This document shows, piece after piece, positions 3,667-62,503 of a stretch of DNA of 64,000 bases. The translations under genes and the position numbers were made by a program. The stretch is taken from assembly GCA_000004985.1 (NCBI GenBank), contig GG738883.1; one strand, 5' to 3'. Under the pieces are notes generated by a model. It saw only the letters and a list, made by a program, of their open reading frames with translations. It was not told the DNA's origin and searched no databases. Numbering within the stretch: position 1 is the first letter of the stretch; the number at the start of each line of letters is the position of its first letter. This stretch comes from Naegleria gruberi. Its lineage: Eukaryota.

Positions 3667-6263
3667 TCACCTCACTTGGTTACCATCAAAAAGAACCATT
3701 ATTTGAATTTCATCAATAATGGAAGGCCAATTAATTAGACCCTCAATTGGAACCTTATCAAATAGTAAGGCAACAGGATAATTGTTCTCATCCTCAACAA
3801 ATAGGAATGCTTCGCATGAAAATTCATTTTCCACTTCACTAATCTCTGGACACAAGTGATCATATCGCTCCTTTGTAAATTTCACATATCTTAAGCGATC
3901 TTGGACTACAGCAAAGTATTTTCTGCCTTTCCAGTGGAATTTTCCAACCAGAGGAAAATCAGATTCATCTCTATTGAATGTAGTAACTGCAACTGAGGTA
4001 TTCGAATCTTTTTAATTGTTGATTTGATAAATTAGCAAATAAATTACTTACCATTTTGAGAGATTTCATTCTTGCCTTCTTGTGGAAGTAAATCGTGCAG
4101 TTTCTTCTTACAATCGAATGGCAATAATTTTGAGGAGAAGAGTGTCTCTATCACATGTTTAGGAATTAATGTTGAAAGTTTGGAATCTAGATTCTTGAGG
4201 ATATAGCTCGATACAATTCCACATACAAATTTCTCATGTTCCTTCCTTTCGAACTTTTCCATTAAATAGTAAATATAAATTGGGTTCAATATTTCTAATA
4301 TTTCAGAAATTGTTAAATCATCCACTAAATAAATACACAATTCGTGTAATAATTCCAATTCAAAAAAGGTCTTTTTTCTTAAAAAGGCAACCTTTCCCTC
4401 TTTTAAAAAATTGAAATATAAATCAAATATTTCAACAACGCCCTCATTCTTAATAGATGGAATAATTTCATTCGAAACTCCACTCAAATCAACTATCATC
4501 AGCCCATTCTGATTTCTTTCCACACTATTAATCCAATCTGAGCTTAACAAAGTTATGAAATAGTTTGATCTTTTCAGTAACTTTCCCTCACATTCAATTG
4601 AATCACTTTTAGATAATTTAATGAGGATTGTATCCTCAATTTGAATGTTTTCATGAGATTCACCTTCCTTAATATTATACGAATGTATCAATTTCATTAA
4701 ATTATCAAATGGAAATGGCATTAATTTGACATTTGGCTTTTCGATAATTGGTGATTTGACATGCTTTAACTTTTCTTGAAATAGTTCCAAGAAACTAGCT
4801 ATGGATTTTCTTTTGGAAAGGTTCATATTCTTTCCCATCCATTTCAATCCTTCAGAATAATTTAGTTCGGTTCCTCTTCCTTGCCAATACATTGATGAAA
4901 TTTTCAATTGAGCATTTAAGTTTCCTTGCTTGGCTGCTTTCAAATAGTATTCGAAAGCTTTAGAATCACTCTGTTCGATTCCTTTTCCTTTCAGATACAT
5001 TAGTCCAAGCTCAAAATGTGCTGTTGAATTTCCTTCCTCAGCTGCTTTTGAATACCATTTAAAAGCTTGTGAATAATCCTTATTGCACCCCTCTCCAGAG
5101 AAATACATATTCCCTAAGAGGACCATTGCCTCAGTCTCATTTTGGTTTGCAGATTTCAAAACCAATTCGAAAGCTTTCGAATAATCTTTTTCTACACCTT
5201 TTCCAAGAACAATCATTGATCCAGCAGCAAGTTGAGACTTTGCATCCCCTTGCTCAGCTGCTCTCAAATACCATTTCAAAGCTTTCGAATAGTCACCATT
5301 CGAATGATAAATCTTTCCACATACATTTTGAGAGGTCACGTCACCTAGCTCTGCAGCTTTCAGATACCATTCCATAGCTTTAGAAACATCTTTTTCAACT
5401 CCATGTCCAAAATAATATATACTTCCAATATCATATTGAATTGACAAAAGTTTTGGAACTCTTCCATGAGATTCAGCTTTTAAAAGCCATTCTAAAGTTT
5501 TGGAATAATCTTGTGGTACAGATTGTCCATAAAAATGCATGTAACCAATTTGAGCTTGTGATTCAAAACAACCCTTCTCTGCAGCTTTCGTATACCATTC
5601 AAAAGCTTTCGTATAATCTGGTTCAACCCCTATTATTCCTTCATAATAAATATGCCCAATAGTACGTTGAGCTGCACAATGCCCTTTCTCAGCTGCTTGC
5701 AAAAAGAATTCCATAGCTTTCGAATAGTCTTGTTCTATTCCAACCCCTTTCAAATACATTGACCCAATCTGGAATAGACCTGCCTGTGCAGTTTTCATAT
5801 ACCATTCGAAAGCTTTCGAATAATCAATCTCTGTATTAGCTCGATTATGATAAAACTCTCCAATCTTTTTCATTGCCAACAAGTGATTATCCCTAATCGA
5901 TGCAATACAAAAATCCAAATTACTAAATTCTTCCGCCAATAAGTAAACATAAAATTTCCAAATATTTTCTTCACACTTTTCATTTTCTGCATTTTTTAAA
6001 ATTTCTTCCAAATATTTTGCATAATCAATAAATTCACAATCTTCATTTTCTATTGTTGATCTATCTTCTTGATAATTATTGTTACGAATTAATTTAATTG
6101 TTTTTAAATTTTCCAAAACTTGATGAAATTTAGAATTGTTCCATCCGATTAAAAGTGAAATGTCATCGGTGGGTTCTTCTTCTTTTTGGTGGTGATTAAT
6201 GGTCTTCTTCTTCTTCTTGTTTGATTTCTGGCCAGATTTTTGATCATGAGAACGTTTTTTCAT
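3667..6263 (-). CDS. Sel1-repeat (TPR-like) protein with a BTB-like region. Proposed join: exon1 6263..4052, 44-nt intron 4051..4008, exon2 4007..3667.
   Basis: At least 8 tandem Sel1-like repeats (DYSKAFEWY.KAAE.G....Q..LG.MY..G.GV..D). A downstream region resembles BTB/POZ. The long ORF ends ...QNGK* but the last codons read AATG|GTAAGT. A 44-nt GTAAGT...AAAAAG intron joins in frame to a 113-codon open frame (3667..4007) that has no in-frame ATG of its own and a TAA immediately upstream of the acceptor. Confidence 0.6.
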
Positions 6264-6645
6264 TTTTTTTAAATTAAATACAAATATTCAAATATTGGGT
6301 CAAACCTTAAATTGAAACTCTGTCGGGTATTTAAGCGACCTAATAAATTAAAATCAAAATTTCCTTAGACTTTGAATCTTCCGTAAATTTTGCAAATTTG
6401 TTCTTCAACCAATTATAAAAAAATTCAACTCCGAAAAAAATTACAAGCAGATCCTTCTTCTCCTAAAAGCTGCCGAACAACAACAAAACAAAAAGGGGAG
6501 GAAGGTATTATTTATAATACAACAACAATAAGAATATAAGAATAATTTTATATTTATATATAATACAACAAGAGAGAGAGGATCAAATTTCTCTTTTTTC
6601 CTCATCAAATCTAATTTTACTTTTTAAATATATTATACAAATAGT

Positions 6646-7506
6646 ATGCTCTCTGCTTCTCATAATACGGAGGAAGATGTTACTCAACTACCTCAGGAAA
6701 GACACGGAAGGAAGACTAGACACTTTGGAAAGAGTACGAGGATTAAAGCCTTGATTATGCAATATTGGAATATGATCATGTCGGTGCTGGGGATGATATC
6801 GATTGGATTGATATGTTTTGGAGCCTTGTTGGTAGTTTTCGGATGGATTTGGAAGTATCCGAGTGAATTTAATTTAAAAACAAGTTGCAAAGTTGTTAAA
6901 TTTGTGGATTGTGTTCTGTTGGTCGATAAATTTCATGATTCATCTTCGGAATTTGCAAATCCATTCAGTAGTAAACATTTCAAGAGATCGGCGATTCATC
7001 AACATTGTGCTGTTGAAGTAATTGTTGAGAATGAGAATGCAACAAGAACAAGTATTGATAAAATAGTGTATGATCCAAATAGTACGGAGAATAAGTATGC
7101 GATTGGTTCAATTGTTGACTGCTACTTATCACAAACCAATAATCAATTTGTATCATTCAGGTCAACCATAACGAGTGGAAAAATTGCTTTTAGAACCATT
7201 GGATTTTTAATCATTTTACTTGGATTGGTATCTGGACTTTTTTGTATCCTTGCCGTAACCTCGATTAGGAAACAATGTTTTGAATTAATTGGATCAATAT
7301 CAAAGAAGATTACATTCCGTCGAACCAAACGATTGGAAGATGAAGAACCTTTGAGAAATGCCTCAAGATCGAGTGCTGGTTCTTCTCATCTCTATGAAGA
7401 TGGTGAACGAGAATATTTCGATTATATTGAAAAGGATAGAAAAGTTCCACAAAAGAATCATTCTGATGAATTTGATGAGGATGAAGAAGAATTAGTAGTT
7501 GTGTAA
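6646..7506 (+). CDS. Hypothetical membrane protein (two predicted TM helices, acidic C-terminus).
   Basis: 286-aa ORF with hydrophobic segments MIMSVLGMISIGLICFGALLVVFGWIW and IGFLIILLGLVSGLFCILAV. No recognisable family. Confidence 0.4.
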   Translation: MLSASHNTEEDVTQLPQERHGRKTRHFGKSTRIKALIMQYWNMIMSVLGMISIGLICFGALLVVFGWIWKYPSEFNLKTSCKVVKFVDCVLLVDKFHDSSSEFANPFSSKHFKRSAIHQHCAVEVIVENENATRTSIDKIVYDPNSTENKYAIGSIVDCYLSQTNNQFVSFRSTITSGKIAFRTIGFLIILLGLVSGLFCILAVTSIRKQCFELIGSISKKITFRRTKRLEDEEPLRNASRSSAGSSHLYEDGEREYFDYIEKDRKVPQKNHSDEFDEDEEELVVV

Positions 7507-9478: not shown

Positions 9479-10354
9479 TTATTCTCCAGTTTCAATCTTT
9501 CTCAAAACTTCGACCATTTCAGCAGCCAAAGATTTTGTGCAAGTGGCAAGACATCTGTGCTTTTGTAATAATACTTCTTCCTTGACATCCAAATCAATTG
9601 GATCACAAACTGTACCACCAGCTTCTTCGACAATAATTTTACCAGCAGCCATATCCCAGATTTGAATTCCATTTTCAAAGTAAGCATCAAGTGAACCATT
9701 TGCAACATAACACAAATTAATGACAGCACTTCCACTTCCTCTAATTCCATGACATCCTCTTCTCAAGAAGGCACCATATTTCTTTTCGACCATTCCTAAA
9801 ATTTCTTCAGTTCTTCCGTATGGGAAATTACTTGAGAGTAAAGATCCTTCAATTGATTCGCATTGTGAAATGACATTCTTTTCAAAAACTTGATTTGTGA
9901 ATGGAGTCTTTTGGAAAGATCCCTTTCCTTTAATTGCATAAAATGTTTCATTCATGATTGGATTGTGAACAACACCCATAACAACTTGTCCACAACAAGC
10001 TAATGCAATACTTGTACAAACTCCTGGATTACGATGGACAAAATTAGTAGTTCCATCAATAGGATCAATAATCCAACTATATCCATTCAATATAAGAGTT
10101 GTATCATGATTATTATATTCTTCACCAATAATTTGATGATCGGGATAATTTGTAAGTAAATGTTGAGACACAATCTCCTCAACACGTTTATCTGTCTGTG
10201 TGACCATATCAATTACAGTCGATTTGGTCAAGAAGGCTTTTTGCTGACTAGCAAAATGTTGTTTAATTTCAATAGCAGCCAATTCACAAGCCTTCAAAGC
10301 AACTTGCAAGGCTTGATCCAAATCAATAACTTTATATGTTCCTTCTGATGCCAT
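9479..10354 (-). CDS. IMPA: Inositol monophosphatase (IMPase family).
   Basis: WIIDPIDGTTNFVHR and IWDMAAG motifs; full-length 291-aa IMPase-like protein. Confidence 0.9.
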   Translation of the reverse strand: MASEGTYKVIDLDQALQVALKACELAAIEIKQHFASQQKAFLTKSTVIDMVTQTDKRVEEIVSQHLLTNYPDHQIIGEEYNNHDTTLILNGYSWIIDPIDGTTNFVHRNPGVCTSIALACCGQVVMGVVHNPIMNETFYAIKGKGSFQKTPFTNQVFEKNVISQCESIEGSLLSSNFPYGRTEEILGMVEKKYGAFLRRGCHGIRGSGSAVINLCYVANGSLDAYFENGIQIWDMAAGKIIVEEAGGTVCDPIDLDVKEEVLLQKHRCLATCTKSLAAEMVEVLRKIETGE

Positions 10355-10634: not shown

Positions 10635-13028
10635 TTATTGATCCAAAACTTGAATGAGGACAGAGTTTGGTTTTTTCACAATTTCACCAATTTTCCACAA
10701 ATTCAAATTCTTTTCCTTGAACGAATTGACCAGCTTTTCTTCCTCATCAGGAGAAATGGTAAACAGCAAGCCACCACTTGTTTGAGCATCTGCCAAAATT
10801 AATTGTTCTTCCTTTGATAGAGTTGAGGCGAATTCAACGAATTGTTGAACATTTTCCAAATTAGTTTTGGTTCCTCCAGGAATAACAATTCTCATTAAGG
10901 ATAGACAAGAAGAATCCAAAAGAGGAATTTGCTTTGCATTCAATTGAGCTACCAAATCCTTATTTTCCTCACAGATTTCTCTACTTCCTTTCATAATTTC
11001 CTTCAAATGTCCTAGTAATCCAAAACCTGTCACATCAGTGCAAGAAGAGACAGATTTCATTTCTCTCAACACATACGAAGTATCTCTATTCAAAGTCTTC
11101 ATAGAATTGATTGCAGATTGAGCTGTTTCAGATTCATATGGAACATTACCCAATTTCATTGCAGATGTAATGACACCTGTTCCAATTCTCTTGGTGAGGA
11201 ATAATAAATCTCCTTCTTCACATCCAACATTTCTGAAAATCTTGTCAGGATGAATAATGCCATTTACACTCATGCCGAATTTAGGTTCCTCATCATCGAT
11301 GGAATGACCACCAACAATGGCAACTCCAGCTTCATTGGCTTTATCGATGGAACCTCTCAAGATTTCTTGGAGAATTTCGATTGGGAGAGTTCTGGATGGG
11401 AAGGCAACAACACTGAGAGCTGTTTGTGGTTTACCACCCATTGCATAGACATCACTTAAGGCATTAGCACAAGCAATAGCTCCAAAATCGTAAGGGTTGT
11501 CCACAATTGGAGCGAAAAAGTCAATGGTGCTTACAATAGCAACGTGATCATTGATTTTGTAAACTGCTGCATCGTCACAGGTTGAATTTCCAACCAGAAC
11601 TGAATTATTTTCTGGTTGTTTTGGCAATTTCTGTAAAATACTGTCTAGTAATCGAGAATTAATCTTACATCCACATCCCAATCCAGAAGCTAATTGAGTC
11701 AACTTGACATTATCTGCATTAACGTTCAATGAAACTTTCTTTGAGAAACAAACTCCGCTTGAAGATATTGAACTAGAACAAGATGAAGCAACTCCTGTAG
11801 CTCCTCCACCACATGGACCACAGGATGATGAGCCACTTCCGCCTCCAGAAGTTGCCATTGATGGAGCAGCTCCTTTTGATTTTAGCCCAAAGTGAATCGA
11901 ACGGTTTCCAACGACATTAAAGTGATTTCCCAACCAAGTATCTGAAAGAACTGAGGCAGTATTTCCACAAACTAGAACTGGTTTGTGGGCTTCAAATTTG
12001 TGAGTACCATCCAATTGGTAACTTTGTGGATAGCCCTTAATACTTCCCTTATAATAAGCAACTTGTCCATAATCTTCACATAATGGTTCAAAATCGAATA
12101 ACTTGAATAATCTGTATGTGGAAGTGAATGACGAGAGCTCTGAAAATAAATCTTGCATATCCTCCTCACCTTTTGGTGGTACCATCGATATGGAAATCAT
12201 TGAGGAACGACTCAATTCTCTTGGATCTTCAAATCCAGACTTTTTCACAAATCTAATAAAGTCATTAATGTACATGGCATGTGAAAACAAATTGATGAGA
12301 CTCTTTTGTGAAGGCGCAATCAAGGATCTGTGGACAGAGTTTTGCAAGACGGAAATTTGCAAATTGTCCAATCTTCTATCGGTATAAATATCCTGATAGT
12401 AAAATTCACCTCCCTTTTTAAGTAATCCAAATGAAAGCTCAAACATTTTTCTCTTCTCTCTCAATTGGAATCCAGGGAAATTACCAATCATTACATCAAA
12501 GGATTCTTTCTTCTCCAATTCCACTTTCAGCTCATGCTGTTTTCCTAAATAAGTAAAGTCAATTGGACTAAATGACAAGTCCTTCAACAATTCATCCATT
12601 ACCTTAATCAACTCTTCCTCGCTCTCCAAACCTCCCATTCTATACAACTTTTCTCTATTTTCACTCAGTACCAACAATGAAACTCTTCCATTTCTTCCAA
12701 CCATTTTCGAAGCCACCAAAACATCTCTCATTGCACTTGATAATAACAACTCATCATCACCATTCGCACACAACACACCAACATTAAGGTGATGATGATT
12801 ATCGAGAGTGGATGATCCCAATCCCAGTGGAATATTCATTCCGATCATTCCCTGTGAAGAAAATGCTGAGGATTGATCTAAAAGTTTGCTGAGGAATTTT
12901 CTTAAAGTTTCCGAATGTAGGGTTGATGATGAGGCAATTTGGGAAAGTTGATTGAGTAGTTGGACATGATCTCTGTGATGAGAGTTACTGGAAATGAAAT
13001 TAAGATTTAAGAATTCTATCATTTTCAT
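10635..13028 (-). CDS. SPS: Selenophosphate synthetase (SelD/SPS, Cys-type) fused to an N-terminal arsenite/selenium-methyltransferase (AS3MT)-like domain.
   Basis: The C-terminal half has the SelD active-site signature LASGLGCGCKINSRLLDSIL (E. coli HGAGCGCKISPKVLETIL) and AIR-synthase-like blocks (AAVYKIND, FFAPIVDNPYDFGAIACANALSDVYAMGG). The N-terminal ~440 aa has AS3MT-like blocks (FDVMIGNFPGF...LLKKGGEFYYQDIYTDRRL; RLFKLFDFE; a Cys/Gly-rich SSSCGPCGGG segment). The expected GxGxG SAM loop appears degenerate (NVGVLCANGDDE). Confidence 0.85.
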   Translation of the reverse strand: MKMIEFLNLNFISSNSHHRDHVQLLNQLSQIASSSTLHSETLRKFLSKLLDQSSAFSSQGMIGMNIPLGLGSSTLDNHHHLNVGVLCANGDDELLLSSAMRDVLVASKMVGRNGRVSLLVLSENREKLYRMGGLESEEELIKVMDELLKDLSFSPIDFTYLGKQHELKVELEKKESFDVMIGNFPGFQLREKRKMFELSFGLLKKGGEFYYQDIYTDRRLDNLQISVLQNSVHRSLIAPSQKSLINLFSHAMYINDFIRFVKKSGFEDPRELSRSSMISISMVPPKGEEDMQDLFSELSSFTSTYRLFKLFDFEPLCEDYGQVAYYKGSIKGYPQSYQLDGTHKFEAHKPVLVCGNTASVLSDTWLGNHFNVVGNRSIHFGLKSKGAAPSMATSGGGSGSSSCGPCGGGATGVASSCSSSISSSGVCFSKKVSLNVNADNVKLTQLASGLGCGCKINSRLLDSILQKLPKQPENNSVLVGNSTCDDAAVYKINDHVAIVSTIDFFAPIVDNPYDFGAIACANALSDVYAMGGKPQTALSVVAFPSRTLPIEILQEILRGSIDKANEAGVAIVGGHSIDDEEPKFGMSVNGIIHPDKIFRNVGCEEGDLLFLTKRIGTGVITSAMKLGNVPYESETAQSAINSMKTLNRDTSYVLREMKSVSSCTDVTGFGLLGHLKEIMKGSREICEENKDLVAQLNAKQIPLLDSSCLSLMRIVIPGGTKTNLENVQQFVEFASTLSKEEQLILADAQTSGGLLFTISPDEEEKLVNSFKEKNLNLWKIGEIVKKPNSVLIQVLDQ

Positions 13029-16446: not shown

Positions 16447-16762
16447 TCTATTAGCAGTTAGAGAATCTGTTTATTGATTTGTAGTGGTAATGAAGATTTT
16501 ACACAGCAGAGTTGAGGAGTAAAGAAAGTAAATTCAGCTATTGAAGTGTTACCACTTTTTAAACAATATCAACAACGTTCACTTTGTGTGCTGTTTGGAC
16601 ATTGAACATGCACAGTAATTGGGCGATTTAAGTATGAATGATTAAGCGCTTCTTCAACAATAAATAATTCTTGCAACATTTTTGTGAAATAATGGAAATT
16701 GTTTGAAAAAAAAGTGATTATTCCAGTTGGCTAAAAGCACATATCTAAATCTTTATTCAGAT

Positions 16763-18071
16763 TTATCTTCTTCTTCTGTATGAGGAGGAGGAAGAGGATC
16801 TTGAAGATGATCTAGATGGAGATCTGGAGTAAGATCTAGATGGGGATCTAGATGATGATCTTGAAGAGGATCTAGATGAGGATCTAGATGAGGATCTTGA
16901 AGATGATCTAGATGGGGATCTAGAATAAGATCTTGAGGTAGATCTAGATGGGGATCTGGATGATGATCTGGATGATGATCTTGATGATTGTCTACCAGAT
17001 GATCTAGAAGATTGTCTTGGTCTGTATTCTCTGGTTTGTCTTCTTCCAGTATTTTGTCTTCTACCAGTGGATTGTCTTCCAGTATTTTGTCTTCTAGTTG
17101 GTCTAGTAGATGGTCTGGTTGGTCTGGTTGTTGGTCTGGTTGATGGTCTAGATGGTCTAGATGGTCTAGTTGGTCTGGTTGATGGTCTAGATGGTCTGGT
17201 TGATGGTCTAGTTGGTCTAGATGGTCTTTGAGTGGATGGTCTAGATGGTCTAGTTGGTCTTTCAGTTGGTCTAGTTTGTTGAGTTGGTCTTTGGGCTGGT
17301 TGAGCAGGTTGTTGAGATGGAGCTCTTCCATTATCAAGAACATTCAAAGCAGCTCTATACTTTTGATCTCTGTCAGCCTTACCATTGTAACCACCGTTAA
17401 TTCTCTTGGTGATTCTATCGAAAGCATCTTGATTCTTTTGATCAGCATATTGATTCAAATTTCTAGAATTCCAGAACCAAGCAGCAGTCTTGAAACCAAT
17501 ATCTGGTCTTTCAGCAAGGGTTGGATTATTTTCCAAATCAACACCCAAAGCTTTACCAGCAGCACGATAATTGGAACGTCCAGTAATTTGAATAGGACCT
17601 CTTCCCTTATACTATAATTATATGAATGTAAATTATCATTAGATCAACATGTTAAAAAGCAAGACACAAAATTTGATGATAGAACAAAGATATTAGAAAT
17701 ACAACAATAATAACAAAAAAACATACTCTAACACCATCACCAGAATGAGTATTACCCAAATCCTTTCTACCTTCATAAGCCTTTCCAGAAGCAAATTCTC
17801 TAAACCACTTCAAGTTACCAGATTCATGACCCAATTGAGCCAAGAAAGCAGCTTGTCTAGCAGGAGTATTAATACCAGCAGAATTCATAGCTTCATTCAA
17901 GTGTCCAACATATTCATTAGCCTTTGATGAGGACAATCCAGGCATTAATTGACTCAATTCAGAGGCAGTCAAATCACGCAAGATATCGAAAGAGTCTTCA
18001 GTTGCTGATGCAGCGGCAGCGGCGAACATCAAACAAGCGAACAAAACGGCAACGATGGCGAAGAGTTTCAT
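16763..18071 (-). CDS. Secreted GH19 (bacterial/phage-type chitinase/lysozyme) domain protein with a long C-terminal Pro/Thr/Arg/Ser repeat tail. Join: exon1 18071..17727, intron 17726..17612 (GTATGT...TATAG), exon2 17611..16763.
   Basis: Signal peptide MKLFAIVAVLFACLMFAAAAASA. Exon1 ends ...AFLAQLGHESGNLKWFREFASGKAYEGRKDLGNTHSGDGVR and exon2 continues YKGRGPIQITGRSNYRAAGKALGVDLENNPTLAERPDIGFKTAAWFWN...INGGYNG. Together these make a contiguous GH19 catalytic signature. The ~180-aa tail is (RPSRPT)n then (SRSS)n, ending SSSSSSYRRRR. Confidence 0.8.
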
Positions 18072-23612: not shown

Positions 23613-23683
23613 TCGGGTGTGGTATAGTGGTAGCATTCCAGACTGTCACTCTGGCGACCCGGGTTCAATTCCAGGCACTCGAG
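23613..23683 (+). tRNA. tRNA-Asp (anticodon GTC), possibly degenerate or a pseudogene.
   Basis: Cloverleaf: acceptor TCGGGTG/CACTCGA, anticodon stem CCAGA/TCTGG with loop CTGTCAC, T-loop TTCAATT. The D-stem (A.C) and T-stem (G.A) each carry one mismatch relative to canonical tRNA-Asp. Confidence 0.55.
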
Positions 23684-29305: not shown

Positions 29306-30376
29306 ATGTCACACAAGTCACTTATCATTTTATTACTTGTCTCCATTGTGTTATCAGTTCTATTCATCACCAACGTCCAAGCAGCTGGTAAATCATCTGG
29401 TTCTCGTTCTTCAGGTGGTTCCAGATCATCATCTTCAAGATCATCTTCCAGATCTTCAGGAGCTTCTCGTTCTCGTAGTTCTGCTTCTTCTTCAAGAGGT
29501 GGTAGATCATCATCTTCAGGAGGAGCTGCCAAGAGAGGTGGTTCTACAGCTTCAAAGAGAGGCGCTTCAGGTGCTGCTAGAGGTGCTAGAGGAGGTGCTG
29601 CTGGCAAGAGAGGAGGTAAAGCAGGTGCTTCTGCAGGTAGAAAATCAGCAGGTGCTGCAGGTGGTAAAAAAGGAAAGAAGGGTGGAAAGGCAGCAGGTGC
29701 TGCTGGAGCTGCTGCTGGAGGTAAAAAAGGAAAGAAGGGTTTGAAAGGTGGTTTGGGAAAGAAATTGTTGGATAAGGCTAAGGGAGCTGCTCAAGATGCT
29801 TTGAATGGAGGTGCTGGTGGTGAAGGTGGTGGTGATCAACAAGGAGGTGGAGATGCTTCACAAGGTCAACCAGAACAAGCTCAACAACAAGAACAAGGTC
29901 AACAAGCTGGAGGTGAACAACCACAACAAGGAGGTGAACAAGCTGTTCAACAACCAACTCAAGAAGGTTCTGCTGCTCCACAACAAGAGCAACAACAATC
30001 TGCTGGAGGTCAACCACAAGAACAATCTCAAGTTCCACAAGCTCAACAACAACAACAATCTGGTCCAACTGGTGGTCAACCACAAGAACAACAACAACAA
30101 CAATCTGCTGTTGGTGGAGGAGAAACTACTCAACAACAACAACAACAATCTGGTCCAACTGGTGGTCAACCACAACAAGAACAACAACAACAAGGAGGTG
30201 TTCAACAAAATGGAGGTTATCAACAAGGAGGTGCTCAACAAAATGGCGGAAATTCATATGTTCGTGGTGGAGGAAATAGACCAAATGGAAATTATATTAG
30301 ATCTTATTCAAGAGGAGGTAGAAGTGGTGTCTACATGAAGGTCAATATTAACATTAATGGTGCTCCAGCTCAATAA
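29306..30376 (+). CDS. Secreted low-complexity protein: signal peptide, cationic Ser/Arg/Gly/Lys-rich half, then Gln-rich half.
   Basis: MSHKSLIILLLVSIVLSVLFITNVQA signal. Then SRSSGGSRSSSSRSSSRSS...GGKKGKKGGK...; then (QQQQQSGPTGGQPQEQ)n-like repeats; ends ...NININGAPAQ. Confidence 0.6.
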   Translation: MSHKSLIILLLVSIVLSVLFITNVQAAGKSSGSRSSGGSRSSSSRSSSRSSGASRSRSSASSSRGGRSSSSGGAAKRGGSTASKRGASGAARGARGGAAGKRGGKAGASAGRKSAGAAGGKKGKKGGKAAGAAGAAAGGKKGKKGLKGGLGKKLLDKAKGAAQDALNGGAGGEGGGDQQGGGDASQGQPEQAQQQEQGQQAGGEQPQQGGEQAVQQPTQEGSAAPQQEQQQSAGGQPQEQSQVPQAQQQQQSGPTGGQPQEQQQQQSAVGGGETTQQQQQQSGPTGGQPQQEQQQQGGVQQNGGYQQGGAQQNGGNSYVRGGGNRPNGNYIRSYSRGGRSGVYMKVNININGAPAQ

Positions 30377-62430: not shown

Positions 62431-62503
62431 TCCCCCTTAGCTCAGTCGGTAGAGCGTCAGACTGTTAATCTGCAGGTCGGTGGTTCGAGCCCACCAGGGG
62501 GAG
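62431..62503 (+). tRNA. tRNA-Asn (anticodon GTT).
   Basis: Acceptor TCCCCCT/AGGGGGA, D-arm GCTC-AGTCGGTA-GAGC, anticodon loop CTGTTAA, T-arm GGTGG-TTCGAGC-CCACC; 73 nt. Confidence 0.85.

What the first reader, a model, noticed from the sequence alone, without database searches (positions are those of the whole stretch)
16763..18071. Bacterial/phage-type GH19 muramidase/chitinase with signal peptide, one intron and a protamine-like Arg/Ser repeat tail
The catalytic signature (AFLAQLGHESG ... YEGRKDLGNTHSGDGVR|YKGRGPIQITGRSNY ... IGFKTAAWFWN) is closest to proteobacterial/phage GH19 enzymes, so the gene looks like an acquired bacterial sequence. Yet it carries a eukaryotic signal peptide and a 115-nt spliceosomal intron cutting through the signature, so it is host-integrated. 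The ~180-aa tail of (RPSRPT)n and (SRSS)n is strongly cationic. For a bacterivorous amoeba, a secreted GH19 lysozyme with a polycationic tail that docks onto anionic bacterial envelopes is a plausible food-digestion or defence effector.
Basis: partly seen in the sequence, partly recalled or inferred. Interest (0 to 1): 0.62.

Follow-up and report, generated by a model that had tools for sequence, protein, structure and literature searches.

The report
Amoeba lysozyme gene with cationic tail
This is a real, already annotated Naegleria gruberi gene for a secreted bacterial-type (phage-endolysin-like) cell-wall-cutting enzyme whose long, strongly positively charged tail probably helps it attack bacteria, though that role is untested.

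Summary
On the minus strand, 18071..16763 encodes a 397-aa protein. It has a signal-peptide-like N-terminus, a complete GH19 catalytic domain split by one 115-nt GTATGT...TAG intron, and a 184-aa Arg/Ser/Pro/Thr tail (50 Arg, net +48).

The window is Naegleria gruberi. The model matches UniProt D2VMQ6_NAEGR in length and mass (397 aa, 44.08 kDa); a 2026 survey lists that entry as a GH19 "chitinase".

The core belongs to the endolysin (muramidase) branch of GH19, not the chitinase branch:
- The best PDB, PHROG and fold matches are phage endolysins.
- The endolysin signature residues are present, and the chitinase cysteine pair is absent.
- It is 62-64% identical to Corallococcus GH19 proteins of the kind shown experimentally to be a lysozyme.

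The gene is not a recent or private acquisition. Close homologues occur in N. lovaniensis, Willaertia and Acrasis. Two N. lovaniensis paralogues have an intron at exactly the same codon boundary, and a 2-3-residue insertion marks the protist sequences.

The tail has no detectable homologues, but its synonymous-site variation fits a translated sequence. Unrelated polycationic extensions recur on GH19 relatives in Acrasis and in several bacteria. A role in binding or breaching bacterial envelopes is therefore plausible, but it is inferred, not shown.

The parts
16763..18071 (-). Whole gene: two exons and one intron, 397-aa product plus stop. Matches N. gruberi D2VMQ6_NAEGR in length and mass.
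   Evidence: for the model. One search gives 44.085 kDa, against 44.08 kDa and 397 aa in the PMC13231604 supplement.
18003..18071 (-). Signal-peptide-like N-terminus, residues 1-23: MKLFAIVAVLFACLMFAAAAASA, with an AxA site before TEDS.
   Evidence: Read from the sequence. Heterolobosean homologues have similar hydrophobic N-termini. The PMC13231604 supplement predicts D2VMQ6 to be extracellular. No signal-peptide predictor was run.
17727..18071 (-). Exon 1 (codons 1-115). Ends with ...GDGVR.
17612..17726 (-). Spliceosomal intron: 115 nt, phase 0, GTATGT...TAG, 21% GC.
   Evidence: Read-through stops after 24 codons. The same codon boundary carries an intron in N. lovaniensis P0007 (L001) and P0034 (L007). 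This is the only GTAWGT in the gene region.
16763..17611 (-). Exon 2 (codons 116-397 plus TAA). Starts with YKGRGPIQITG.
17318..17978 (-). GH19 catalytic domain, endolysin subfamily: residues about 32-213, interrupted by the intron.
   Evidence: Pfam, PHROG endolysin, PDB endolysins. AF2 model of the 88%-identical P0001 has pLDDT 91, and Foldseek's top four hits are endolysins.
17823..17825 (-). Glu83 codon, the predicted general acid in the HES motif. Equivalent to E49 of SPN1S endolysin and E79 of the lysozyme C25GH19B.
   Evidence: Alignment; PMC9098779; PMC8547705 Table 1.
17796..17798 (-). Glu92 codon, the predicted catalytic base, 9 residues after Glu83. Equivalent to E58 of SPN1S and E88 of C25GH19B.
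   Evidence: It is an invariant column in alignment A1 (E90 of P0001).
17582..17584 (-). Thr125 codon in IQITG, the water-coordinating residue equivalent to T130 of SPN1S endolysin.
17096..17317 (-). Tail module 1, residues 214-287: a Q/P-rich start followed by (RPS/RPT)n repeats.
17015..17095 (-). Tail module 2, residues 288-314: RRQNTGRQSTGRRQNTGRRQTREYRPR, containing three dibasic RR sites.
16766..17014 (-). Tail module 3, residues 315-397: 17 in-register RSxS units, then SSSSSSYRRRR at the C-terminus.
   Evidence: in the 17 units, variation sits at the third positions of the Ser codons (1.45-1.55 bits, against 0.32 at positions 1 and 2). All Arg codons are AGA.
16752..16757 (-). AATAAA polyadenylation-signal-like hexamer, 6 nt after the stop codon.
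   Evidence: Sequence reading only; no transcript data.

Best explanation
This is a nuclear gene of Naegleria gruberi. Its model has the same length and mass as D2VMQ6_NAEGR. It encodes a secreted or phagolysosome-delivered peptidoglycan hydrolase of the endolysin branch of glycoside hydrolase family 19.

Shown here:
- A complete GH19 domain with the Glu83/Glu92/Thr125 catalytic set.
- A signal-peptide-like leader.
- One conserved spliceosomal intron.
- Host-type codon usage.
- Membership of a heterolobosean/protist gene family whose nearest bacterial relatives are secreted GH19 enzymes of predatory Myxococcota and of Acidobacteriota.

Inferred:
- An ancestor of these amoebae acquired the gene from bacteria. 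It was then duplicated, giving four copies in N. gruberi.
- The enzyme cuts the glycan strands of ingested or nearby bacteria, as the related Corallococcus lysozyme C25GH19B does. That enzyme has an acidic pH optimum, which would suit a phagolysosome.
- This paralogue alone gained a 184-aa disordered, polycationic Arg/Ser/Pro/Thr tail through in-frame expansion of 9-12-nt repeats.
- The most likely job of the tail is electrostatic capture of anionic bacterial surfaces (LPS, teichoic acids, capsule), and possibly displacement of the divalent cations that stabilise the outer membrane. That would give the catalytic domain access to peptidoglycan from outside. This is the principle of natural cationic tails on Gram-negative phage lysins and of engineered Artilysins.
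For: Gene and host:
- Model verified.
- A neighbouring ORF is 100% identical to N. gruberi inositol monophosphatase, and the other neighbours are eukaryotic.
- Length and mass match D2VMQ6_NAEGR.

Endolysin type:
- PHROG endolysin E=7.6e-65.
- PDB endolysins score 6e-34 to 1e-26, against 4e-17 or weaker for chitinases.
- Foldseek's top four hits for the 88%-identical proxy model are endolysins; 9ms7 has TM 0.89 and rmsd 1.6 A.
- GH19ED endolysin signature I33/R109/G118 corresponds to I67/R102/G113. The chitinase Cys pair is absent, since the mature protein has no Cys.

Substrate:
- Paralogues and bacterial relatives carry SH3b, LysM or PG_binding_1 modules.
- The Corallococcus GH19-only proteins are 62-64% identical. 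One of them has the same E79/E88 numbering as C25GH19B. That enzyme lyses M. luteus, kills Gram-positive and Gram-negative cells, binds peptidoglycan, and has a pH optimum of 4.5-5.0 (PMC9098779).

Old residence in amoebae:
- Homologues in N. lovaniensis, Willaertia and Acrasis.
- Identical intron position in two N. lovaniensis paralogues.
- A 2-3-residue insertion is shared by all named heteroloboseans and absent from all 20 named bacterial sequences.
- The sister group of the window sequence consists only of insertion-bearing sequences in 154 of 200 NJ bootstraps, and includes a named bacterium in 5 of 200.

Tail is translated:
- It is in frame with no stop.
- Codon choice is 50/50 Arg = AGA, 24/25 Pro = CCA and 13/13 Gln = CAA.
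- Among the 17 RSxS units the variation is almost entirely synonymous third-position change.
- There is no donor-like site in the tail, and an AATAAA follows the stop.

Tail is functional:
- Non-homologous polycationic extensions recur on GH19 relatives. Examples: Acrasis kona P0269 (about 270 aa, R/S/Q-rich, N-terminal), the eukaryote-like P0207 (PAKK repeats) and P0083, and bacterial P0259 with P0271-P0274, P0165/P0270, P0256 (Pyrinomonadaceae) and P0195.
- Cationic tails of Gram-negative lysins are held to aid outer-membrane passage (PMC8868305).
- A fused polycationic nonapeptide confers that ability experimentally (PMC4161244).
Against: - There is no expression, localisation or enzymatic evidence for this protein.
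- The signal peptide was judged by eye.
- Muramidase rather than chitinase specificity is inferred from relatives. GH19ED notes that one endolysin-branch enzyme also accepts chitin.
- I could not confirm that the 62-64% identical Corallococcus proteins include C25GH19B itself.
- The tail has no detectable homologue, and no orthologue with a tail was found. Conservation of the tail across species is therefore unknown.
- With 34% Ser and 11% Thr in a secreted protein, the tail could be heavily O-glycosylated or phosphoglycosylated, which would mask or cancel its charge (own knowledge of amoebal secretory proteins).
- The survey of cationic extensions is biased. The query contained the tail, so cationic hits were enriched.
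- Deep nodes of the NJ tree have almost no bootstrap support. A single origin of all the protist sequences, and the identity of the donor lineage, are not established.
Confidence: 0.6

Rival explanations
1. The enzyme is a chitinase, as currently labelled in surveys. It would be used to remodel the amoeba's own cyst wall or to digest fungal prey, and the tail would bind chitin or the wall matrix.
For: Pfam names the family 'Chitinase class I'. PMC13231604 lists D2VMQ6 among chitinases. GH19 enzymes share subsites -2 to +1, and one endolysin-branch enzyme accepts chitin (PMC8547705). LysM, found on some relatives, binds both chitin and peptidoglycan.
Against: - All sequence, profile and fold comparisons rank endolysins well above chitinases.
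- The chitinase-specific Cys97/Cys105 pair is absent, while the endolysin-specific positions are present.
- Paralogues and relatives carry SH3b and PG_binding_1, which are peptidoglycan modules.
- The closest characterised kind of enzyme is a lysozyme.
- I found nothing in the searched literature showing chitin in Naegleria cyst walls.
Confidence: 0.12
2. The catalytic part is a muramidase, but the tail does not bind bacteria. It is a Ser/Thr/Pro-rich, heavily O-glycosylated or phosphoglycosylated spacer, or a sorting and retention module. It would hold the enzyme on the amoeba surface or in the lysosomal matrix, or it would be cleaved off at its dibasic sites.
For: The tail is 59% Ser+Thr+Pro, with no predicted structure. 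It has three RR sites in module 2 and a C-terminal RRRR. An RPSQPSRPS-type stretch serves as an interdomain linker in N. lovaniensis P0003. Another secreted-looking N. gruberi protein in the window (29306..30376) also carries SRSS-rich low complexity, so this may be a general feature of the host's secretome.
Against: A plain spacer has no need for Arg at every third or fourth residue, nor for the near-total exclusion of acidic residues (2 of 184). A C-terminal spacer with nothing beyond it is odd. The recurrence of compositionally different but always cationic extensions on GH19 relatives, including bacteria that do not make such glycans, points to charge as the selected property.
Confidence: 0.22
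3. The tail is a functionally neutral, recently expanded coding microsatellite: replication slippage of AGATCT-rich 9-12-nt units that happens to stay in frame. Alternatively, it is not translated at all.
For: - The region is a tandem-repeat array with periods 9, 12, 36 and 51.
- Several frames on both strands are open across it, so ORF length alone proves little.
- No homologue of the tail exists.
- The other three N. gruberi paralogues (197-279 aa) and all heterolobosean homologues seen lack it.
Against: - No stop codon separates domain and tail, and no splice donor is present.
- Codon choice is the host's preferred set.
- The units have diverged mainly at synonymous sites while keeping Arg and Ser. 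Recent slippage, or non-coding DNA, would not produce that pattern.
- The public gene model has the same length and mass, so it includes the tail.
Confidence: 0.1
4. The GH19 sequence is bacterial contamination or an assembly chimera rather than an amoeba gene.
For: The catalytic domain is up to about 70% identical to myxobacterial proteins.
Against: - A 21%-GC spliceosomal intron interrupts the domain, at a position shared with N. lovaniensis paralogues.
- Codon usage matches the surrounding N. gruberi genes.
- GC content is continuous with the window.
- The flanking genes are eukaryotic.
Confidence: 0.01

Closest known systems
C25GH19B, the secreted GH19 lysozyme of the predatory myxobacterium Corallococcus silvisoli (PMC9098779), and myxobacterial GH19 'clade II' (PMC10875029)
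   Same: Signal peptide followed by an endolysin-type GH19 domain. The Glu-x8-Glu catalytic pair is shared (E79/E88 there, E83/E92 here). Corallococcus proteins of this architecture are 62-64% identical to the window core. Both belong to bacteria-eating organisms.
   Different: C25GH19B is bacterial and intronless, and consists of the catalytic module only, about 20 kDa. The window protein has an intron, lacks nothing in the core, and adds a 184-aa polycationic tail. Identity to C25GH19B itself was not checked, because that sequence was not retrieved.
Phage GH19 endolysins: PWe2 (9ms7), P. aeruginosa GH19 endolysin (9eoi), SPN1S (4ok7) and KTN6 gp46 (8p8e); the ELYS subfamily of the GH19 Engineering Database
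   Same: Same fold and catalytic residues, and these are the best structural and sequence matches. The ELYS signature positions are present.
   Different: Phage enzymes act from inside the cell after holin action, and they have no signal peptide or intron. [quoted passage not shown] This protein, by contrast, is eukaryotic and secreted. It also lacks the three-helix insertion of SPN1S.
The other heterolobosean GH19 genes: N. gruberi D2VI28, D2VS08 and D2VBA0; N. lovaniensis P0003, P0007, P0034 and P0081; Willaertia magna P0004 and P0005; Acrasis kona P0269
   Same: They share the protist-type insertion after 'YAD', signal peptides and eukaryotic gene structure. Two N. lovaniensis genes also share the intron position.
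   Different: The N. lovaniensis and Willaertia proteins have four conserved cysteines (NTCC..., ADC, ...LGC). They either have an N-terminal SH3b domain or no extra module. The window protein has no cysteine in its mature part and carries the C-terminal tail. Acrasis has its cationic region at the N-terminus and an extra C-terminal domain.
Gram-negative phage lysins with natural cationic or amphipathic C-terminal tails (PlyF307, Abtn-4, Abp013; PMC8868305) and engineered Artilysins (PMC4161244)
   Same: A peptidoglycan hydrolase joined to a polycationic segment. In those systems the segment promotes interaction with, and passage through, the anionic outer membrane.
   Different: Those tails are 9 to about 30 residues long, Lys/Arg-rich and often helical. 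This one is 184 residues, repeat-built, Pro/Ser/Thr-rich, predicted to be unstructured, and evolved in a eukaryote. Its activity is untested.
Horizontally acquired antibacterial lysozymes in eukaryotes: GH25 muramidase (PMC4241558) and phage-type lysozyme in bivalves (PMC5303276)
   Same: A bacterial or phage cell-wall hydrolase domesticated in a eukaryotic genome, with introns and secretion signals, and presumed to be used against bacteria.
   Different: A different glycoside hydrolase family (GH19 endolysin branch), a different host lineage (Heterolobosea), and an added polycationic tail.

Membership tests
Glycoside hydrolase family 19 (Pfam PF00182) | Significant match to the family profile, above the curated threshold | tested here: met
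   53.9 bits against a cut-off of 25.5, E=2.8e-14. The profile covers only residues 74-166, because Pfam's model is built largely on chitinases. Full-length coverage comes from endolysin profiles and structures.
Glycoside hydrolase family 19 (Pfam PF00182) | Catalytic general acid Glu, catalytic base Glu and water-coordinating Ser/Thr (E49, E58 and T130 in 4ok7 numbering) | tested here: met
   E83, E92 and T125 align with these residues. The corresponding columns are invariant or nearly so across 66 homologues.
Glycoside hydrolase family 19 (Pfam PF00182) | Bilobal, mostly alpha-helical lysozyme-like fold | tested here: met
   The AF2 model of P0001 (88% identical proxy; the spliced window protein could not be submitted) has pLDDT 91.3. 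Foldseek hits to GH19 structures have probability 1.00.
GH19 endolysin (ELYS) subfamily, as defined by the GH19 Engineering Database | Subfamily-specific pattern I33, R109, G118 and L/Y173 (4ok7 numbering). Three of the four are found in 10 of 12 characterised endolysins. | tested here: met
   I67, R102 (in the Tyr+3 register; HMMER's gap placement differs) and G113 are present. The fourth position is ambiguous in the pairwise alignment, with L167 and Y170 flanking it. That makes three of four.
GH19 endolysin (ELYS) subfamily, as defined by the GH19 Engineering Database | Closer to characterised endolysins than to chitinases | tested here: met
   PDB endolysins score E=6e-34 to 1e-26, against 4e-17 or weaker for chitinases. 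Foldseek ranks 1-4 are endolysins. PHROG endolysin family E=7.6e-65.
GH19 endolysin (ELYS) subfamily, as defined by the GH19 Engineering Database | Hydrolysis of peptidoglycan (lysozyme/muramidase activity) | not testable with these tools
   Known only for relatives (C25GH19B, PMC9098779).
GH19 chitinase (CHIT) subfamily | Subfamily-specific pattern that includes the loop-3 disulfide Cys97-Cys105 (4j0l numbering) | tested here: not met
   The mature protein (residues 24-397) contains no cysteine. Pattern from PMC8547705 Table 2.
Horizontally acquired, host-integrated gene | Lies in host chromosomal context with host gene structure | tested here: met
   Spliceosomal intron, host codon bias, eukaryotic neighbours, and a neighbouring gene 100% identical to N. 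gruberi.
Horizontally acquired, host-integrated gene | Phylogeny nests the eukaryotic sequences within a bacterial/phage radiation, with support | tested here: inconclusive
   - Thousands of bacterial and phage homologues contrast with a small protist group.
- The NJ tree puts the window sequence with the protist sequences, and next to Acidobacteriota and Myxococcota. Deep nodes have bootstrap values of 3% or less.
- The sister group is protist-type in 77% of replicates.
- No ML program was available.
Polycation-assisted lysins (natural cationic-tail lysins and Artilysins) | A strongly cationic segment covalently attached to a peptidoglycan hydrolase | tested here: met
   The tail has a net charge of +48 over 184 residues, with +13 in its best 40-residue window.
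Polycation-assisted lysins (natural cationic-tail lysins and Artilysins) | The segment binds or permeabilises the bacterial envelope and increases killing from outside | not testable with these tools
   Requires experiments with and without the tail. Possible glycosylation of the tail is unknown.

The most novel reading that the evidence does not exclude
Bacterivorous protists and some bacteria may have repeatedly and independently attached long, disordered polycationic arms to endolysin-type GH19 muramidases, so that the enzyme can attack bacteria from the outside. The examples differ in sequence: Arg/Ser/Pro/Thr repeats in N. gruberi, Arg/Gln/Ser in Acrasis, PAKK repeats in an uncultured protist, and Lys/Ala or Lys/Pro tails in Acidobacteriota and other bacteria. 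If so, nature reached the 'Artilysin' design convergently, and the N. gruberi protein would be a eukaryote-built example. It would also show that the endolysin branch of GH19 is not confined to phages and their hosts.
Probability: 0.35. Interest if true: 0.65.

Novelty: new variant of a known kind. Interest (0 to 1): 0.45.

Why it matters
Free-living amoebae are major grazers of soil and water bacteria, yet the enzymes they use to open bacterial cell walls are poorly characterised.

This gene family suggests that Naegleria and its relatives use domesticated, endolysin-type GH19 muramidases of bacterial ancestry. Surveys currently label them 'chitinases', and the main GH19 classification considered the endolysin branch restricted to phages and bacteria.

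The tailed paralogue offers a natural test of whether a long polycationic arm lets a lysozyme work on intact Gram-negative cells. That is the problem antibacterial enzyme engineers try to solve with Artilysins. If the tail works this way, it supplies a new, evolution-tested design and an example of convergent evolution across domains. If it does not, the finding reduces to a correctly annotated but mislabelled lysozyme gene with a low-complexity tail.

Tried and rejected
1. **Looking for the protein in the public collection.** Exact look-ups of the 397-aa model and of two neighbouring ORFs failed. I first concluded that the gene was unannotated and recorded this in notebook entry 2. That was wrong. 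PMC13231604's supplement lists D2VMQ6_NAEGR with the same length and mass. The collection simply lacks the N. gruberi GH19 proteins.

2. **Submitting the spliced protein.** I used exon 2 instead, and P0001 as a proxy for structure prediction.

3. **Orthologue with a tail.**
   - P0001 (88% identical, soil read assembly) is truncated before the tail.
   - The metagenome scan with exon 2 returned one unrelated 47% hit.
   - The representative search found no close orthologue.
   - The tail alone gave no hit at E<=0.001.

4. **Phylogeny.** No ML software was installed. NJ with 200 bootstraps left all deep nodes unsupported, so I relied on the insertion, the intron position and sister-group frequencies.

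5. **Linking the Corallococcus hits to C25GH19B by accession.** This failed: WP_161664743 was not among the 15 listed members.

6. **Cryptic intron or frameshift removing the tail.** Rejected. The tail contains only two GT dinucleotides and no GTAWGT.

7. **Other explanations for the locus.** ORFs on the opposite strand and in the alternative frame across the repeat are by-products of the palindromic AGATCT units. There is no Rfam family or tRNA at the locus and no second GH19 copy in the window.

8. **Literature.** I found nothing on D2VMQ6 beyond the 2026 survey, and nothing informative on chitin in Naegleria cyst walls.
Full report
**1. What is in the sequence**

The feature lies on the minus strand.
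- An ATG at 18071 opens exon 1 (18071..17727, 115 codons).
- A 115-nt intron follows (17726..17612). It reads GTATGT...TAG and is 21% GC, against 41-42% in the exons.
- Exon 2 (17611..16766) ends in TAA at 16765..16763.
- An AATAAA hexamer lies 6 nt further on.

Without splicing, the reading frame stops after 24 codons. With splicing, the junction reads GDGVR|YKGRGPIQITG and aligns without a gap to solved endolysins.

The product is 397 aa. It starts with MKLFAIVAVLFACLMFAAAAASA|TEDS, a classical signal-peptide layout. I judged this from the sequence, as no predictor was available. Residues about 32-213 are the catalytic domain. Residues 214-397 are the tail.

**2. Whose gene it is**

The window is Naegleria gruberi. 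The ORF at 9479..10354 is 100% identical to the N. gruberi inositol monophosphatase, 81% to N. lovaniensis and 61% to Willaertia. Other neighbours are ordinary eukaryotic genes: emp24/GOLD, RhoGAP, a Sel1-repeat protein and a fatty-acid hydroxylase. GC content is continuous across the locus.

My model has exactly the length and mass (397 aa; 44.085 kDa) given for UniProt D2VMQ6_NAEGR. The supplement of a 2026 chitinase survey describes that entry as 'Predicted protein', GH19 only, extracellular (PMC13231604). The gene, with its tail, is therefore already in the public annotation. That survey lists four GH19 proteins in N. gruberi: 197 aa, 279 aa with SH3, 274 aa with SH3, and this one. It calls them chitinases that may reflect lateral transfer.

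The protein collection I could search lacks all four. That is why the exact look-ups failed and why my first inference of 'unannotated' was wrong.

**3. What the catalytic domain is**

The domain passes Pfam GH19, but its affinities are with endolysins.
- PHROG endolysin family phrog_181 scores E=7.6e-65.
- The best solved relatives are the phage or prophage endolysins 9ms7, 9eoi, 9hnv and 4ok7 (E=6e-34 to 1e-26). Chitinases start at 4e-17.
- An AlphaFold model of P0001, the 88%-identical soil sequence used as a proxy, has pLDDT 91.3. Its four best Foldseek matches in the PDB are endolysins; 9ms7 has TM 0.89 and rmsd 1.6 A.

The GH19 Engineering Database paper gives discriminating positions (PMC8547705).
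- The endolysin pattern is I33/R109/G118/L-or-Y173. It is matched here by I67, R102 and G113. The fourth position is ambiguous in the alignment.
- The chitinase pattern includes a Cys-Cys pair. The mature protein has no cysteine at all.
- The catalytic set E49/E58/T130 corresponds to E83/E92/T125.

The closest named bacterial proteins are 62-68% identical. They come from Myxococcota (Archangium, Cystobacter, Corallococcus, Melittangium, Hyalangium) and Blastocatellia. Many of them carry LysM or PG_binding_1 modules.

The roughly 203-aa Corallococcus proteins match the description of C25GH19B: GH19-only, about 20 kDa, and (in P0276) the same E79/E88 numbering. That enzyme is a proven lysozyme. 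[quoted passage not shown] I could not confirm by accession that C25GH19B is in that cluster.

Muramidase activity is thus well supported by homology, but it has not been demonstrated for this protein.

**4. Evolutionary position**

The nearest sequences overall are eukaryotic.
- P0001 is 88% identical.
- Four N. lovaniensis and two Willaertia magna proteins are 62-69% identical.
- Acrasis kona P0124/P0269 is a further homologue.
- Many unnamed sequences sit on mRNA-sized (about 1 kb) JGI contigs and begin with signal peptides. I infer that these are transcripts of soil protists.

Three observations, none of which uses the tree topology, tie the window gene to this group.

(a) Shared intron. 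The phase-0 intron at GDGVR|YKGRGP sits at the identical codon boundary in N. lovaniensis P0007 and P0034. P0003 has its intron 12 codons upstream, and Willaertia P0004 has none.

(b) Shared insertion. A 2-3-residue insertion after 'YAD' (QKNQDA here) is present in the window protein and in every named heterolobosean sequence. It is also present in about 50 unnamed, mostly signal-peptide-bearing sequences. It is absent from all 20 named bacterial sequences. A few eukaryote-like sequences (P0083, P0065) have the short form, so the character is not perfectly clean.

(c) Sister group. In NJ bootstraps, the sister group of window+P0001 contains only insertion-bearing sequences in 154 of 200 replicates. 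It includes a named bacterium in 5 of 200.

The deeper NJ nodes are unsupported (bootstrap 3% or less), and no ML program was available. I therefore cannot say whether there was one transfer or several, nor name the donor.

The direction of transfer, from bacteria to protists, is inferred. It rests on the overwhelming bacterial and phage membership of this branch (7,946 of the 8,000 scored candidates) and on the bacterial nature of the substrate.

Within Naegleria, the window gene is the odd paralogue. It lacks the four cysteines conserved in the N. lovaniensis and Willaertia proteins (NTCC, ADC, LGC), and no N. lovaniensis orthologue of it appeared.

**5. The tail**

Composition: residues 214-397 hold 62 Ser, 50 Arg, 25 Pro, 20 Thr, 13 Gln and only two acidic residues. 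Net charge is +48 and pI about 12. The mature core has net charge +4.

The tail has three modules:
- a Q/P-rich start followed by (RPS/RPT)n, residues 214-287;
- RRQNTGRQSTGRRQNTGRRQTREYRPR, residues 288-314;
- 17 in-register RSxS units ending in SSSSSSYRRRR, residues 315-397.

At the DNA level it is a tandem-repeat array with periods of 9 to 51 nt. It is rich in the palindrome AGATCT, which is why other frames and the opposite strand are also open. ORF length is therefore weak evidence for translation.

Better evidence that it is translated:
- No stop separates domain and tail.
- The tail contains only two GT dinucleotides and no donor-like site.
- Every Arg is AGA, 24 of 25 Pro are CCA and all Gln are CAA. 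These are the host's preferred codons.
- Across the 17 RSxS units the AGA columns are invariant. Ser codon positions 1 and 2 carry 0.32 bits of variation, while third positions carry 1.45-1.55 bits. The units have diverged synonymously while keeping the peptide.
- The public model has the same length and mass, so it includes the tail.

A single-sequence AlphaFold run of exon 2 shows no secondary structure and pLDDT of 32-54 in the tail. This is consistent with disorder, although single-sequence models are weak evidence.

The tail has no detectable homologue and no Pfam domain. It has no C-terminal hydrophobic stretch that would suggest a GPI anchor.

**6. How it most likely works**

Shown:
- a secretory leader;
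- an intact endolysin-type active site;
- a covalently attached, extremely cationic, unstructured tail.

Inferred:
- The enzyme is delivered to phagolysosomes or the medium and hydrolyses the peptidoglycan of prey bacteria.
- The tail concentrates the enzyme on anionic envelopes and may help it cross the outer membrane.

The comparative argument for the tail is that cationic extensions of unrelated sequence recur on members of this GH19 branch:
- Acrasis kona P0269 has a signal peptide, then about 270 residues of R/S/Q/P-rich polycation, before the domain.
- The eukaryote-like P0207 has PAKK repeats, and P0083 has a basic N-terminal region.
- Bacterial proteins carry Lys/Arg-rich C-terminal tails of 75-186 residues: P0259 with P0271-P0274, P0165/P0270, P0195 and P0256. 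P0256, from a Pyrinomonadaceae MAG, also has PG_binding_1.

The sample is biased, because the query that found most of these contained the tail. The examples show recurrence, not frequency.

Precedent exists on the phage side. Natural cationic tails of Gram-negative lysins are thought to aid outer-membrane passage (PMC8868305). Fusing a polycationic nonapeptide to endolysins confers killing of intact Gram-negative cells, probably by displacing LPS-stabilising cations (PMC4161244).

The main caveat is that a Ser/Thr-rich tail in a secreted amoebal protein may be glycosylated or phosphoglycosylated, which could neutralise it. This point rests on my own knowledge and was not tested.

A second secreted-looking protein in the window (29306..30376) also has an SRSS-rich cationic stretch. 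Such segments may therefore be a broader habit of the N. gruberi secretome.

**7. Comparison with what is known, and verdict**

Functionally, the protein resembles three known things:
- the myxobacterial predatory lysozyme C25GH19B;
- phage GH19 endolysins with cationic tails;
- conceptually, the horizontally acquired GH25 and phage-type lysozymes of other eukaryotes (PMC4241558, PMC5303276).

It meets every defining feature of GH19 that can be tested in silico, and those of the endolysin subfamily. It fails the chitinase signature. Enzymatic activity and tail function cannot be tested here.

The gene itself is already annotated and was recently listed as a GH19 'chitinase'. What appears to be undescribed in the literature I could search:
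- its assignment, and that of its heterolobosean relatives, to the endolysin branch;
- the conserved intron and the insertion that mark an old protist clade;
- the polycationic tail and its convergent counterparts.

I rate it a new variant of a known kind, with moderate interest of 0.45. It is a sound and testable hypothesis rather than a surprise, and its most interesting part, the tail mechanism, remains inferred.

Noticed in passing
window 29306..30376 (+): A 356-aa ORF with a signal-peptide-like start (MSHKSLIILLLVSIVLSVLFITNVQA). It continues with an SRSS-rich cationic stretch, a Gly/Ala/Lys-rich cationic stretch (+13 per 40 aa) and a Gln/Glu-rich acidic half. It has no Pfam hit. This is a second secreted-looking protein with Ser/Arg low complexity, 12 kb from the GH19 gene. 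One 22-nt stretch matches the GH19 tail at 95% identity.
   Followed up: partly
window 10635..13028 (-): A 797-aa ORF with AIRS/AIRS_C domains (selenophosphate-synthetase-like) in its C-terminal half and a weak methyltransferase-like match in its N-terminal part. From my own knowledge, this looks like the methyltransferase-SelD fusion reported for N. gruberi.
   Followed up: no
L001 4426..5509 and 6001..7102 (N. lovaniensis PYSW02000023.1): Two SH3b-GH19 genes lie in tandem. Both have an intron at SAFL|AQLAHES. The second intron is at GDGVR|YKGRGP (phase 0) in P0007, but 12 codons upstream at YEGRR|DLGN (phase 1) in P0003. This could be intron sliding or independent gain.
   Followed up: partly
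P0269 (Acrasis kona KAL0487029.1, 667 aa): The architecture is a signal peptide, about 270 aa of Arg/Ser/Gln/Pro polycation, a PKP-rich linker, a GH19 domain, a Gln/Ser linker, and a C-terminal region with a sub-threshold Peptidase_C39_2 match (E=9.5e-4). It may be a two-enzyme cell-wall hydrolase.
   Followed up: partly
P0123 (JGI contig of 1846 nt, 550 aa): A secreted-looking protein with two endolysin-type GH19 domains, separated by a Cys-rich and PKPQP-repeat linker. It ends in ...VLGC like the heterolobosean proteins.
   Followed up: no
L002 (ENA ERZ929261, contig k127_298617, 1535 nt): A metagenome contig encodes an inositol monophosphatase identical in protein sequence to the window ORF 9479..10354. 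N. gruberi, or a near-identical strain, may therefore be present in that sample.
   Followed up: no
window 23613..23683 and 62431..62503 (+): tRNA-Asp(GTC) and tRNA-Asn(GTT) genes. These are the only Rfam hits in the window at gathering thresholds.
   Followed up: no
window 16753..17617, other frames and + strand: Mechanical ORFs of 43-196 aa overlap the tail in other frames and on the opposite strand, with translations such as DHLDHLD... and SWSS.... They arise because the repeat units are built around the palindrome AGATCT. They are not evidence of overlapping genes.
   Followed up: yes
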